From contig OX597824.1 in the NCBI GenBank assembly GCA_951406725.2, forward strand, positions 86,428,001-86,492,000: a DNA stretch of 64,000 nt, given 5' to 3'. The translations under genes were made by a program, and so were the position numbers. The notes beneath the pieces were generated by a model. It ran no database searches. It was not told where the DNA came from and saw only the letters and a list, made by a program, of their open reading frames with translations. The DNA comes from Octopus vulgaris (taxonomy: Eukaryota). Below, piece by piece: positions 3,501 through 51,500 of the stretch; the stretch's first letter is position 1, and each line of letters opens with the position of its first letter.

Positions 3501-6500
3501 TTCATATGCTTACCTCCTTTCTCCTTGAGAATTTGCTTTGACACTCCATCACTAACATCTTATTTTCTTCCCAGCAACTCTTACATGCTTTTATATAATC
3601 TTTCTACTCATTACTGTATTTATTTTGGGATGCTCTGTGTTTCTTTCAATTACTTTAAATATAACAAAATATTTAGCAAAATAACTAAGTTATCATTAAG
3701 CTTGTGTTAGGAACATAAATTGTGACTAAGGTTTGGTGGAAGATTCTAATTCAAAACTTATGAAAACAAGACATTTGTACTACAAGGCCAGAAGTGGTTT
3801 CAGGTGGGTTGGTATCAAAAGGGTGAAGGTGGCACCATCACTAGTGCTTTCTACATGGCACCAGCATGAGTGCTTTTAACCCTTTTGTTCCCATATTTCT
3901 GTTGAGATGCTCTGTGTTTCTTTCAATTACTTTAAATATAACAAAGAATTTAGTAAAATAATTTAGTTATCATTCAGCTAGTGTTAGGAACATAAATTGT
4001 GACTAAGGTTTTGTGGAAGATTTTAATTCAGAACTTATGAAAACAAGACATTTGTACTACAGAGCCAGAGCTGGATTCAGCTGGGTTGGTAATGAAAGGG
4101 TTAAGGATAATTAACCAATAAGCTTTAATTTTCTAGGGCGGCAAGCTGGCAGACTCGTTAGCACAGAAGGTGAAATGCTTAGCGATATTTTGTCTGCCGC
4201 TACATTCTAAGTTCAAATTCCGCCGACGTCGACTTTGCCTTTCGTCCTTTCGGGATTGATTAAATAAGTACCAGTTATGCACTGGGGTCGATATAATTGA
4301 CTTAATCCGTTTGTCTGTCCTTGTTTGTCCTCTCTGTGTTTAGCCCCTTGTGGGCAGTAAAGAAATAGGTATTTCGTCTGCCGTTACGTTCTGAGTTCAA
4401 ATTCTGCTGAGGTCAACTTTGCATTTCATCCTTTCAGGATTGATTAAATAAGTACCAGTTACATACTGGGGTCAATGTAATCAACTTAATCCTTTTGTTT
4501 GTCCTTGTTTTTCCCCTCTATGGGTAATAAAGAATTATATAAACTTTACCTTTCTTTTTTGTTCCAGTGTGAGATTTTCTTGTCCTAGGATATACATCAA
4601 TTTAGTGATGGCGGCTTCAAGAGTAATATCTCCACCAGGAATCACACCTGCCTCTCCAAGACCCTGTAGAAAATAGAAAAGAAAAAGAGAAAGGTAATGG
4701 GATTCTAACACATGGTGAAAGAAGCCTTCTTCCCAACCATGTGGCTTCAAGTTCAGTCCCTCTGCATGGCACTTTGGGCAAGCGTCTTCTACTATAGCCT
4801 GGAGCCTATTGACATGAGTAAATTTCGTAGCTGTGTGTGTGTATGTGTGTGTTTGTCTTCCATCACAACTCAATGACTGGTGTTGGTTTGTTTACATCCC
4901 TGCAACTTCACTTGGCAAAAGAGACCAACAGAATAAGTACCAGACTTTAAAAATAAGTACCGTGTTCAATATATTCGACTAAAACCATGTGGCACGTAAA
5001 AGCACCCACTACACTCTCGGAGTGGTTGGCGTTAGGAAGGGCATCCAGCTGCAGAAACTCTGCCAGATCTAGATTGGTGCCTGGTGCAGCCATCTGGTTC
5101 GCCAGACTTCAGTCAAATCATCCAACCCATGCTAGCATGGAAAACAGACGTTAAACGATGATGACGATGATGATGATGATATATATATATAATCAAAATG
5201 AGGATGAAAAATTGGTTATTAATTTGAAAACATCGATTTTAACACCAGTGGTCTAGCGTATAAAAAAACTGAGATTCAGTAAATAGTATTTCATACATAA
5301 ATATAAGCGGGAATTTTTTTAACCACTATGTGGAAACCCTTACGCTGGAAGAAGATCCGCTATGGTCTTAACTGGAGAACAATTCTTAGTGGTTAAGACC
5401 ATAGTGAATCTTCTTCTAGCGTAAGAGTTTCCACATAGTGGATAAAAAATTCTCTCTTATATTTATATTTATATATATATATATATATATATATATATAT
5501 ATATATATATAACATAATACAGTGTACATTTAAACACATGAGGAATCCACTCGTGGGATTCAACACGCTAGAAAAAACACCTAGCTGTTCTTTCTAGCGT
5601 GTTGAATCCCACGAGTGGATTCCTCATATGTCTAAATGCACACTGTATTTTATGACTAATACATAGACTTTGGACTAAATTTTTGCACGTTAGACCACTG
5701 GAAATGAAAATTTTAATTAATTTCCATTTCCCTTTGATATGATTAAGTATATATATGTATATATGTATATATATATATATATATATATTGAGGTTATAAG
5801 AGGTAATGGTGTCATTGAGACCCAAAGGTGTCAGGTAATGCTGAATAAGTGCTATAGACAGACCATAGTTAAGTTCCAGATTCGGTAATTTTGCGAATAA
5901 AGGGTTCAACGTTGGTTCCATGTCACTGTGTGTATATAAGAATTTTTTGTGTAATAAGATAAAAAACCAAGGCTGAGTAGATATTAGAGCATTTATAGAT
6001 ATAAATACTCTAATATCTACACAGCCTTGGTTTTTTATGTTATTATGCAAAAAATTCTTATATATATATATAATGCCATGTTTGATCGTTAGCCCCTACA
6101 CGCAATTTTTTTCTCTCCTTGTTTCTTTTCTGTGTATCTTTCTGTCGAAGAGCGTAGGCTCGAAACGTAAAAGACTTGTTTTATTTATATTCCTGAGCAC
6201 CATACTAATACATTTGTTTGTTTGTACTCCACCTGCCTTCGTCTTTTGTTTATTTTCGTAAACCTTCCCGTTATATATATATATATATATATATTAATCA
6301 ATATAGGGTGGCAAGGAAAATTTTGTAGAATTTTATTGCCACCAGCGGCCCAGTGGGAAAAAAATTAAATAGTCATAGACCATTTTTAAGTTCAACATTA
6401 ACAATTAAGGAACGGCCATAATAGGCCATTCACCCACTAGAAATAACAGCCAAAGCTTCTACCGCAAATAAAGATCAATTCCATAAACAGGAGAAAATTA

Positions 6501-48500: not shown

Positions 48501-51500
48501 TGTGGCCATTTGCCAGCCTCGTCTGGTCTCTGTGCCGGTGGAACGTAAAAAGTACCATCCGATCGTGGCCGCTTGCCAGCCTCGTCTGGTCTCTGTGCCG
48601 GTGGCACATAAAAAGCACCATCCGATCGTGGCCGTTTGCCAGCCTCGTCTGGTCTCTGTGCCGGTGGCACGTAAAAAGCACCATCCGATCGTGGTCATTT
48701 GCCAGCCTCGTCTGGTCTCCGTGCCGTTGGCACATAAAAAGCACCATCCGATCGTGGCCGTTTGCCAGCCTCGTCTGGTCTCTGTGCCGGTGGCACGTAA
48801 AAAGCACCATCCGATCGTGGCCATTTGCCAGCCTCGTCTGGTCTCCGTGCCGTTGGCACATAAAAAGTACCATTCGATCGTGGCTGTTTGCCAGCCTCGT
48901 CTGGTCTCTGTGCCGTTGGCACATAAAAGGTACCATCTGTTCGTGGCTGTTGCCAGCTTCGTCTGGTCTCCGTGCTAGTGGCACATAAAAAGCACCATCC
49001 AATCGTGGCCGTTTGCCAGCCTCGTCTGGCACCTGTGCCGGTGGCACGTAAAAAGCACCCACTACACTCACGAAGTGGTTGGCGTTAGGAAGGGCATCCA
49101 GCTGTAGAAACACTGCCAGATCAGACTGGGCCTGGTGCAGCCTCCTGGCTTCACAGACCCCAGTTGAACCGTCCAACCCATGCTAGCATGGAAAGCGGAC
49201 GTTAAACGATGATGATGATGATGATGATATTCATTTTGAATTGATAAAAGGTGCTTTTTTCTAATTTTTATATATATATATATTATATTTTGTAAAATTT
49301 GATTTAGTATTTCTAAATTGAATTTTTCCCTGTAAATTAGGAATAATATCCCCTCAAATAATTATTATTATTATATTTATAACTAACGTTTCTGAGAAAT
49401 TACCCTCATTATCATCAGTTATGGAACTTACAGGTAAAATAGAACCACTCTTTTGGAATTCATCTTTGAAGGATATTCCTATACTATCTAGAAAGGAATT
49501 TCTAGATGGTGTAATTTAATTGTTCATTTTGAATTGGTAAAAAGGTGGTTTTTTCTAATTTATATATATCAGTCGCCATGATAGATCATTAGCCACTACA
49601 CACATTTTTTTCTCTCCTTGTTTTTTCTGTGTCCCTGTCTGTAGAAGAGCGTAGGCTCGAAACGTAAAAGACTTTTTCTATTTCTGAGCGTTATACTAAT
49701 ACATCTGTTTGTTTTGTACACCACCTGTCTTCATCTTTTGTTTCGTAAACTCTCCCTATATATAATATATATACATATATATATACGCATATATATATAT
49801 ATATATATATATATATATATATATATTCTTTTATATGTCTCAGCCCTAAGTCTGTGGCCATACTGGGGCACTGCCAGCGTAATCACCTTCTAATTGGCCA
49901 ATTCTATGTGGTTGGCTTTTCATGAAGGAGGGAATCCAATACCACTGCCCTCTTTTGAGTTTCCTGCCTTGATATTGGTTCACCTGGGATCTTGGATAGC
50001 AAGTGGTCAAGCTGTTTCTTGAAAACATCTACCCCAACTCCATGGAGATCCCTCAGCTGTTTTGGCAAGGCATTAAATAGCTGTGGGCCCTTGAATACCA
50101 AGCTATTGCAATATATGGCCCTCACCTTAGATGAGACAGCTGGGACTTTTGGAACAGTGCAGTGACATCCAATCCAAGGTCTGGTATAACTCTCAATTCC
50201 AAAGTTTGGTGCCAACCCCTCCAGTATCTTGTAATATGTCATTGCATACCTCTCCCATCTTCGCTCCAGAGAGAGGAGTCAAAGCTCTTTCAGTCTCTCC
50301 CAGTTGCTCAGCCGTTCCATTGATGTAATCTCCCTCGTGTAGCCATGCTGAACTGCTTCCAGTTCCGCTGTTAATCCTACACTGTAACATGACCACAATT
50401 GAGAGCAGTAGTCTAGACGGCTGACGATAAATGTCCTCCATAGGACCAGCACGGTTTCCTGGTCCCTTGTTCTGAAGGTTCTCAGAATCCATCAGGTTAT
50501 TTGCCTGCACACTGCCACCATTTTGGTGATATGCAACTGAAACAAGGCATTGTTGCTCATATCAATCCCAAGATCATGCATCGTATGTGATTCTAGGATT
50601 CTGGTCCCAAGTATTGTTGTTGTGACTTTTGAGCACCAATTAGGTGGTAGCAAAGGGCTTGGAATTTGCCTGCATTAATTGCATTTTGTTTTCATCAGCC
50701 CATTTATATATGGCATCGAGGTCTTTCTGTAGAAGATTAGCATCAGAAGGTTGCTTGTACTACTTTTTGTGTCATTAGCATAGTTAGTAAGTGTGGCTGT
50801 CTGAAAGGGCCATCATGAACAGCAGTGGTCCCAATACATATCTCTTTTATCTCTTTTACTTGTTTCAGTCATTTGACTGCGGCCATGCTGGAGCACCGCC
50901 TTTAGTCGAGCAAATCGACCCCGGGACTTATTCTTTGTAAGCCCAGTACTTATTCTATCGGTCTCTTTTGCCGAACCACTAAGTGACGGTGACGTAAACA
51001 CACCAGCATCGGTTGTCAAGCAATGCTAGGGGGACAAACACAGACGCACAAACACATACACACACATACATATATACATACATATATACGACAGGCTTCT
51101 TTCAGTTTCCGTCAACCAAATCCACTCACAAGGCATTGGTCGGCCCGGGGCTATAGCAGAAGACACTTACCTAAGATGCCACGCGGTGGGACTGAACCTG
51201 GAACCATGTGGTTGGTTAGCAAGCTACTTACCACACAGCCACTCCTGCACCTATATGTATTATATATATATATTTCTTTATTGCCCACAAGGGGCTAAAC
51301 ATAGAGGTGACAAACAAGGACAGACAAAGGGATTAAGTCGATTACATTGACCCCCAGTGCAAAATTGGTACTTTACTTATCGACCCCGAAAGGATGAAAG
51401 GCAAAGTCGACCTCGGCGGAATTTGAACTCAGAACGTAACGACAGACGAAAAACGGCTATGCATTTCACCCAGCGTGCTAACGTTTCTGCCAGCTCGCCG

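What the first reader, a model, noticed from the sequence alone, without database searches (positions are those of the whole stretch)
5190..49760. Intronic swarm of hammerhead-bearing fold-back elements associated with (TA)n (Penelope-like)
Seen: canonical-core type I hammerhead motifs at 13439(+), 15985(+) and 30138(-); core-variant motifs at 6137(+), 26409(+), 44726(-) and 49635(+); degenerate ones at 29561(-), 31657(+), 36544(+), 40572(-) and 49378(-); 3' halves at 13873, 14240, 31032 and 32112. Their flanks belong to several unrelated sequence families. Nearly all have a short palindromic stem III (ACGT, CTGATCAG, CAATTG, CAGCTG), sit next to TA runs, and lie in or near inverted arms. Established: Penelope-like element terminal repeats carry minimal type I hammerheads, proposed to cleave as dimers, and often show inverted 5'-truncated ends. 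Inference: this gene hosts many non-autonomous Penelope/retrozyme-like families that generic annotation would call unknown AT-rich DNA. About 12 motifs in about 45 kb would imply a large genome-wide ribozyme population.
Basis: partly seen in the sequence, partly recalled or inferred. Interest (0 to 1): 0.8.

Follow-up and report, generated by a model that had tools for sequence, protein, structure and literature searches.

The report
Octopus Penelope-like ends with variant hammerheads
The introns of an octopus asparaginase gene hold about 14 hammerhead-ribozyme-shaped motifs that are likely the truncated tail ends of Penelope-like jumping genes (a known kind), and the commonest family carries a U where hammerhead cores normally have an essential A, so whether it still cuts RNA is untested.

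Summary
The motifs are real. My descriptor finds 4 canonical-core type I hammerheads, against 0.03 per shuffle. All lie in introns of an Octopus vulgaris asparaginase-like gene. They have fixed polarity: the insertion ends at (TA)n about 90-113 nt after the predicted cut site in 7 of 12 sequence lineages. Many fold-backs carry an extra tail on one arm only. This matches the published footprint of 5'-truncated Penelope-like elements (PLEs), which already make up 6.8% of this genome. No RT or GIY-YIG frame was found, so PLE membership, non-autonomy and cleavage are inferred. The new element is family A, about 190 nt long and laid by 9,600-27,700 contigs per DNA run. Its core reads CUGU-N-GA: position 6 is U, not A, while N7 takes all four bases and the cut base is A or U. 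I found no such natural variant in print. The scan noted the same kind of locus in another genome (e1-7882047). Verdict: a known kind with one interesting variant.

The parts
320..57119 (-). Host gene: L-asparaginase-like / 60 kDa lysophospholipase with ankyrin repeats; 12 exon blocks mapped; every motif below is intronic
   Evidence: tblastn of O. vulgaris protein P0002, 100% identity in three exon blocks; Pfam Asparaginase and Asparaginase_C
5192..5457 (.). Fold-back of the family C 3' end, about 105-nt tail on the left arm only; no hammerhead
5512..5745 (.). Fold-back with about 96-nt tail on the right arm; tail resembles those of families B and C
5933..6064 (.). Short fold-back between short TA runs; no hammerhead
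6075..6271 (+). Family A copy; hammerhead C3 6142, U6 core, H17 6169; ends at (TA)n 103 nt after the cut site
6538..6637 (-). Family A copy whose 5' end falls at the predicted cut site
13101..13614 (+). Family B: fold-back of the tail (13094-13284), 155-nt upstream piece, canonical hammerhead (C3 13443, H17 13510), body ending at (TA)n 111 nt after the cut site
13780..14101 (+). Uncertain: 3' half motif at 13873, upstream part folded back; 3' end shared with 26660-26783
14138..14491 (.). Family B head-to-head pair: minus arm with hammerhead 3' half (H17 14245); plus arm starts at the cut site and runs through body and tail
15146..15290 (-). Family C inverted arm with tail
15935..16212 (+). Family C copy; canonical hammerhead C3 15989, H17 16053; (TA)n 164 nt after the cut site
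24831..25114 (.). Fold-back (arms 24894-25114); no hammerhead and no TA run of 4 or more units nearby
25884..26228 (.). Short inverted arms (26052-26088, 26195-26231) beside (TA)n; no hammerhead; weak
26274..26512 (.). Family E head-to-head pair: plus arm with U4C hammerhead (C3 26415, H17 26465) ends at +43; minus arm lacks helix II and ends at +111
29466..29633 (-). Family A copy; U6 core, G12A; C3 29594
30038..31080 (.). Family D head-to-head pair: minus arm with canonical hammerhead (C3 30220, H17 30143) ends at +107; plus arm starts at GAAA (31032) and ends at +38; 810 nt between them with no protein match
31171..31464 (.).
31512..31944 (+). Family J: canonical hammerhead (C3 31665, H17 31713) inside a fold-back (arms 31498-31613 and 31757-31872)
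32112..32123 (+). Lone 3' half motif; not distinguishable from chance
36530..36686 (+). Decayed hammerhead (C3 36548; U4C, G8A); short TA run 109 nt after the cut site, then a high-copy repeat
40285..40660 (-). Distant relative of family A (C3 40602; A6 kept; U4C, G12A; 56-58% identical to family A), followed by a family H tail
44096..44332 (.). Fold-back with about 65-nt extension on the left; no hammerhead
44628..44762 (-). Family A copy with C at position 6; 5' end just before helix I; C3 44757
49230..49560 (-). Family H: tail piece, upstream piece, decayed hammerhead (C3 49418), body to TA at +103, short tail
49575..49756 (+). Family A copy used as reference for the contig lay; C3 49639, U6 49642, N7 49643, H17 49666

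Best explanation
These are real minimal type I hammerhead motifs that likely mark the 3' ends of heavily 5'-truncated Penelope-like retroelement copies from about a dozen families, likely pasted into (TA)n tracts of these introns. Inferred mechanism, from the anole element PAc: the element's RT/GIY-YIG protein nicks both strands of AT-rich DNA and primes reverse transcription inside its RNA at one of two sites 3' of the hammerhead. Short cDNAs give a lone end; two cDNAs from opposite strands give a head-to-head fold-back; use of the two start sites leaves a tail on one arm only. The hammerhead is carried along because it lies about 100 nt inside the copied end. A single copy is predicted to cut poorly or not at all: helix III is a short palindrome that would need a second copy or the element's protein. 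The host gene is likely just a landing place. Family A is a high-copy lineage whose core has U at position 6; it is predicted to be weak in Mg2+ alone.
For: SHOWN: motifs exceed shuffles (4 vs 0.03; 9 vs 0.68). The inverted arm of E adds +111. Families D and E each show two ends (+38/+107, +43/+111); B and C show 85-105-nt tails. Of 12 hand-picked non-SINE fold-backs, 11 have one end within about 12 nt of (TA)4+, and 7 have the other end 53-146 nt short of it. Paired changes between relatives: helix I C-G to G-C (family A vs 40602), helix III U-A to C-G (13443 vs 14245), helix I U-A to C-G (31318 vs 31294). Family A in four public runs: depth peaks on the core at 1.9-2.8 times the flanking bins; N7 is the only one of the listed places with three alternative letters; H17 is U in 10-26%. 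PUBLISHED: minimal-hammerhead consensus and dimer model (PMC4209133); inverted 5'-truncated copies, one-sided tail and (TA)n bias (10.1101/2021.04.23.441226); two-strand nicking and internal RT start at +111-118 with the cut at +26, i.e. 85-92 nt apart by my subtraction (PMC11167929); PLEs 6.83% of the O. vulgaris genome (PMC13282606 supplement).
Against: No PLE protein remnant: 0 RT or GIY-YIG hits in 310 open frames and 30 stop-read-through frames, and no homologue for the region upstream of D. No genome was available to link a family to a full element. Rfam does not recognise the motifs. Tails here are 65-105 nt, longer than the published 30-40 nt. C (+164), J (+231) and F (+218) break the spacing, and two family A copies reach their first TA at +91 and +97. 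Several motifs lack the usual G10.1-C11.1 pair. Of the 3 double-sided pair changes, 2 come from a misaligned truncated row, so only 1 is real. No place in family A helix II shows covariation. No cleavage data.
Confidence: 0.8

Rival explanations
1. Family A (and perhaps others) is a self-contained, ORF-less element of about 190 nt, a solo non-LTR-retrozyme-type monomer copied in trans by PLE protein, not the stub of a long element.
For: Copies at 6075 and 49575 begin at the same base after a short TA run. In one search, depth over the 65 nt upstream of the core is about the same as over the body. Single contigs in X1 and X2 join back from 49673 to 49575. Retrozymes derive from pLTRs and occur as dispersed monomers (10.64898/2026.07.22.740005).
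Against: No tandem array in the window. Other copies start at different places (29633, 44762, 6637). The go-back joints are one contig each. The lay cannot show what lies upstream in other copies. Retrozyme hammerheads are described as canonical type I (PMC7229834); these are the minimal type.
Confidence: 0.3
2. The family A hammerhead is a dead relic. U6 arose once in a master copy, cutting was not needed, and the family spread anyway.
For: Changes in the CUGA turn give low activity in a mutational scan (PMC9901934). A6C cripples Mg2+ cleavage (PMC7151607, PMC3088659). Hammerhead mutants do not block PAc insertion in vitro (PMC11167929). A change below 8% at a site is also what neutral decay of young copies (85-95% identical) would show.
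Against: H17 varies only between A and U. Depth peaks on the core. These suggest constraint on the fold across master lineages.
Confidence: 0.45
3. The fold-backs are MITEs or other DNA-transposon remnants inserted at TA, and the motifs are by-products of palindromic AT-rich DNA.
For: Short inverted arms beside TA; Tc1/mariner remnants occur in the window.
Against: Arms meet at variable inner points and differ in length at the outer end. The motif always points towards the TA junction at a near-fixed distance. Half of the motifs have no inverted arm. Full catalytic cores do not arise in shuffles.
Confidence: 0.04
4. The motifs are kept by the host to cut or regulate the asparaginase pre-mRNA.
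For: Two intact-core motifs (30220, 44757) lie on the sense strand.
Against: 6 of 8 intact-core motifs are antisense to the gene (Fisher p = 0.28 against broken ones). All are single copies of repeat families, and many are decayed.
Confidence: 0.03

Closest known systems
Minimal hammerheads (min-HHR) in pseudo-LTRs of metazoan Penelope-like elements (Cervera and De la Pena 2014, PMC4209133)
   Same: Type I layout, 4-6 bp helix I, CUGANGA plus one extra base, GAAA, palindromic helix III, NUH; many families per genome, mostly solo copies, some in opposite-strand pairs.
   Different: No cephalopod among the representative motifs in the supplement text I read, and all of those have A6; family A has U6. 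B, C and D have long helix II loops and a non-G-C or mismatched first pair. No linked ORF shown here.
Canonical EN+ PLE insertions (Neptune, Penelope/Poseidon, Nematis) and Naiad, as described in Craig et al. 2021 (10.1101/2021.04.23.441226)
   Same: 5' truncation, partial tandems, inverted 5' copy, tail on one end, (TA)n target bias.
   Different: Tails here are 65-105 nt, not 30-40. Naiads are reported to lack hammerheads, so the motif-bearing families are unlikely to be Naiads. The clade cannot be assigned without a protein.
PAc, Poseidon element of Anolis carolinensis (Frangieh et al. 2024, PMC11167929)
   Same: RT start 85-92 nt after the hammerhead cut, two start sites, both strands nicked and extended; fits the 90-113-nt spacing and lopsided fold-backs here.
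   Different: PAc is protein-coding and was tested in vitro; here only DNA footprints. The second end lies at about +40 (D, E) or beyond +200 (B, C).
Non-LTR retrozymes (PMC7229834; 10.64898/2026.07.22.740005)
   Same: Short, non-coding, hammerhead-bearing, PLE-related, many dispersed monomers, many in introns.
   Different: No tandem arrays in this window; minimal rather than canonical hammerheads; circular RNA untested.
A6C hammerhead of phage Bcep176 (PMC3088659, PMC7151607)
   Same: Natural change at core position 6; one copy here (44757) has C6.
   Different: That is a single phage ribozyme, active and Mn2+-preferring. Family A has mainly U6, in thousands of animal genomic copies, activity unknown.

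Membership tests
Minimal type I hammerhead (min-HHR) | 5' core CUGANGA | tested here: met
   13443, 15989, 30220, 31665, 31294, 31318, 49418
Minimal type I hammerhead (min-HHR) | A at core position 6, family A | tested here: not met
   U, U, U, C in the four copies; no A or C variant of 8% or more at 49642 in run X1, and no A variant in X18 or X9, by table 1 counts; not closed by counts for X2
Minimal type I hammerhead (min-HHR) | GAAA, palindromic helix III, NUH | tested here: met
   H17 varies between A and U in family A; broken in 29594, 40602, 31294, 31318
Minimal type I hammerhead (min-HHR) | Helices I and II supported by covariation | tested here: inconclusive
   Three single compensatory changes between relatives; none in family A helix II
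Minimal type I hammerhead (min-HHR) | Self-cleavage as a dimer or with protein | not testable with these tools
   Only contigs were available; unconstrained folding does not give the active fold
Penelope-like element (EN+) | ORF with PLE-type RT and GIY-YIG endonuclease linked to the repeat | tested here: not met
   None in the window. Expected for short truncated copies; linkage elsewhere could not be tested. The pieces are therefore filed as 'like PLE ends', not as proven members.
Penelope-like element (EN+) | Inverted 5'-truncated copies and a tail on one end | tested here: met
Penelope-like element (EN+) | Hammerhead in the terminal repeat, upstream of the RT start | tested here: met
Penelope-like element (EN+) | Insertion into AT-rich or (TA)n targets | tested here: met
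   13 of 14 within 250 nt vs 26% background
Non-LTR retrozyme | Tandem units each with a hammerhead | tested here: not met
   No such array in the window; only single-contig go-back joints
Non-LTR retrozyme | Expressed as linear and circular monomer RNA | not testable with these tools
   No listed holder is on record as RNA, and contigs show no ends
MITE / TIR DNA transposon | Symmetric terminal inverted repeats with fixed ends | tested here: not met
   Arms are lopsided, with variable inner junctions

The most novel reading that the evidence does not exclude
Family A is a roughly 190-nt, protein-free parasite of Penelope machinery with 10^4-10^5 copies in octopus genomes, and its hammerhead is a working natural core variant (CUGU-N-GA) kept under selection, silent alone and switched on only by the element's protein or by Mn2+. 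The shared spacing of about 100 nt from cut site to insertion end would then reflect a conserved ribozyme-plus-RT-docking module.
Probability: 0.25. Interest if true: 0.6.

Novelty: new variant of a known kind. Interest (0 to 1): 0.33.

Why it matters
The general picture is established: PLE ends carry minimal hammerheads, and octopus is rich in PLEs. Two things could add to it. First, the role of PLE hammerheads is an open question, since catalysis was dispensable in vitro. A very abundant family with a non-consensus core base, but free N7 and an allowed cut base, is a natural test of whether the fold or the cut is what selection keeps. Second, descriptors that demand A6 would miss this family, and Rfam scores none of these motifs, so ribozyme counts for cephalopods are likely too low.

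Tried and rejected
Rfam: no hammerhead at gathering scores; none among 150 rows shown of 206 at E up to 10. No own genome held, so no genome-wide consensus. Family A core pattern: 0 matches in metagenome contigs and viral contigs. Pfam scans of 19 + 150 + 141 open frames and 30 read-through frames: no RT or GIY-YIG; frames mostly inside high-copy repeats or microsatellites, or under 42 residues, were not scanned. A GIY-like look in the region upstream of D found no homologue. Idea that copies start at the cut site, as a trace of cleavage in vivo: true for 2 of 5 motif-adjacent arms inspected (6637 and about 14293), not for the arms of D, E or J; one search lists no begin/end pile-up and no loose end there among 24 shown of 924, and contigs are a poor test, so it stays a lead. 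Idea that B is a 415-nt circular unit: dropped, because its forward tail ends where the inverted tail ends, as in an ordinary partial tandem. Idea that the hammerhead is a ruler for the RT start: weakened, since PAc RNA cut back to +20, past the 5' core, still inserts. Strand bias against intact sense motifs: not significant. A MAFFT alignment of all 14 motifs was not in structural register and was not used. No RNA holder listed; 375 contigs of a run guessed to be RNA matched, which does not show transcription. The repeat finder was swamped by microsatellites. nhmmer found no further family A copy beyond the six known.

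
Full report
SETTING. The window holds a minus-strand L-asparaginase-like gene. A named O. vulgaris protein (P0002) maps in 12 exon blocks from 57119 to 320, with 100% identity in three blocks free of splice-edge overlap. All reported motifs are intronic. 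No whole genome was held.

OBSERVATION. The motifs are at the stated places. Rfam does not score them (150 of 206 rows seen). My descriptor for a type I hammerhead with a palindromic helix III found 4 canonical-core motifs (C3 at 13443+, 15989+, 31665+, 30220-) against a mean of 0.03 in 60 block shuffles. With one core mismatch it found 9 against 0.68 in 25 shuffles; one of the 9 (52822-, lowest score) I treat as chance. The descriptor was tuned after seeing the motifs; a stricter first version gave 2 against 0 in 100 shuffles. Inspection and homology bring the count to 14 complete or near-complete motifs. Lone 3' halves are about one third chance (17 vs 6.4), so 32112 is not supported.

ANATOMY. 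Each motif points towards a (TA)n junction: 13 of 14 within 250 nt, background 26%. A (TA)5+ run begins 100-115 nt after the predicted cut base in 11 of 18 motifs and half-motifs, background 2.2%. Two family A copies reach a first short TA at +91 and +97, so the true range is about 90-113. C, J and F fall outside it. D and E are head-to-head pairs with one arm ending near +40 and the other near +110. B and C carry tails of 85-105 nt on one arm; the tail at 5650-5745 aligns to both above all 500 shuffles, while B against C alone does not. Of 12 fold-backs picked by hand (SINE-derived and microsatellite self-matches left out), 11 touch (TA)4+ at one end and 7 stop 53-146 nt short at the other. 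About half of the motifs have no inverted arm of their own.

FAMILY A. Five related copies (85-95% identical among the four with a core) and one distant relative lie in the window. Read in the register of the published consensus, with one extra base after A9 and G10.1-C11.1, the core is C-U-G-(U/C)-N-G-A; the distant relative at 40602 keeps A6. I laid contigs of 4 of the 24 listed runs on 49229-49756 at 80% likeness. 27,661, 23,296, 9,645 and 375 records were laid; these counts cover families H and A together, with most depth on A. The table shows 40 of 50 variant rows. N7 has three alternative letters (C 6-15%, G 7-15%, U 19-29%), H17 is U in 10-26%, G16.2 is A in 5-15% (a CpG), and this copy's helix I mismatch is repaired in 92-100%. 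No row appears at position 6. For X1 the per-kind counts leave only one C>A, one C>T and one T>G place unseen, so A or C at position 6, and any change at a core A or G, stay under 8%. Depth peaks on the core at 1.9-2.8 times the neighbouring flank bins. The tool warns that depth is no copy number. As a rough bracket, peak depth over single-locus depth gives about 5,000 (worst-case overlap) to 2-5 x 10^5, and the window's density would give about 2 x 10^5. For the decayed motif at 49418 other copies keep a canonical 5' core with C at N7. Low variation per site is also expected of young neutral copies, so the case for selection rests on the multi-allelic N7 and the core peak.

MECHANISM. Shown: the motifs, their polarity, spacing, lopsided fold-backs and the abundance of family A. 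Inferred: origin by PLE target-primed reverse transcription. In the anole element PAc the protein nicks and extends both strands of AT-rich DNA, starts internally at two sites, and the main start lies 111-118 nt into the ORF with the hammerhead cut at 26 (PMC11167929). That would yield the pattern seen here. The same paper found that the hammerhead cuts only with protein and is dispensable for insertion in vitro. Minimal hammerheads were inactive as monomers and weak as dimers (PMC4209133). I therefore expect these solo intronic copies to be largely inert. Six of 8 intact cores are antisense to the host gene, which is not significant.

AGAINST. No RT or GIY-YIG remnant was found, so membership in the PLE family is not shown; the pieces work like PLE ends. 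Non-autonomy is not shown. Covariation is thin: three single compensatory changes, and two of the three counted are artefacts of a truncated row. Tails are longer than published. No RNA evidence exists.

COMPARISON AND NOVELTY. Minimal hammerheads in PLE ends, in thousands of solo copies per animal genome, were described in 2014. Inverted truncated copies, one-sided tails and (TA)n bias are described in Craig et al. 2021. PLEs are 6.83% of the O. vulgaris genome in 190 families; that paper's text and the one supplement held do not mention hammerheads, and its repeat library was not seen. The pieces here cover about 11% of the window, so the locus is not exceptional. I found no paper on octopus hammerheads (5 papers hold both terms, 4 listed, judged from listing and, for one, passages) and none on a natural U6 hammerhead; the library lacks most subscription papers. 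A6C is known from one phage ribozyme, active and Mn2+-preferring; changes in the CUGA turn are generally damaging.

WHAT I READ. PMC4209133: parts 1-2 of 4 and supplement parts 1-2 of 3, figures as text only. 10.1101/2021.04.23.441226: passages. PMC11167929: passages and the second half of the main text. 10.64898/2026.07.22.740005: part 1 of 5 and passages, supplements not seen. PMC13282606: part 1 of 3, passages, supplement search. PMC7151607: part 1 of 4. PMC3088659, PMC9901934, PMC7229834, PMC8967140, PMC11662667: passages. Hammerhead numbering follows the standard scheme as used in those papers; the labels 'SINE' and 'MITE' are my recalled names for repeat types, not tool results. Script labels A29595, E36549 and K31297 correspond to C3 at 29594, 36548 and 31294.

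VERDICT. Observation largely right; interpretation right in kind but unproven in membership and ordinary in density. New variant of a known kind because of the U6 family. Interest 0.33.

Noticed in passing
window 46425-47500 (+): Decayed Tc1/mariner-type transposase: Pfam HTH_Tnp_Tc3_2 (E 1e-12), HTH_28, weak DDE_3 pieces.
   Followed up: no
window 17556-17855 (+): Open frame that looks like a mariner transposase C-terminus by recalled motif; no Pfam hit.
   Followed up: no
window 49904-50561 (-) and 42107-42795 (-): Open frames that look like mobile-element protein fragments by eye (LINE-like C-terminus; transposase-like); no Pfam hit.
   Followed up: no
window 15535-15919 and 47717-49059: Related 61-63-nt tandem arrays (6 and 21 copies) grown inside a high-copy short repeat family.
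   Followed up: no
window 58012-58501, 10925-11449, 14988-15508, 43365-44029: High-copy short repeats (likely SINEs) also form close inverted pairs; together with the PLE-like fold-backs these would make double-stranded intron RNA. High-copy repeats cover about 27% of the window.
   Followed up: no
window 26395-26420: The inverted arm of family E lacks helix II exactly between two identical 5-nt words of the two core halves, as a template jump would give.
   Followed up: partly
window 6637 and about 14293: Two arms of unrelated families begin at, or within a base or two of, the predicted cut site; not borne out as a pile-up.
   Followed up: partly
window 36359-36463 and 37093-37197: A 105-nt, 98% identical direct duplication on either side of the 36548 motif and a short repeat.
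   Followed up: no
window 29134-29238 (-): Weak match (49%) to a segment of the O. bimaculoides predicted protein P0001 that the O. vulgaris protein lacks; possible mispredicted or repeat-derived exon.
   Followed up: no
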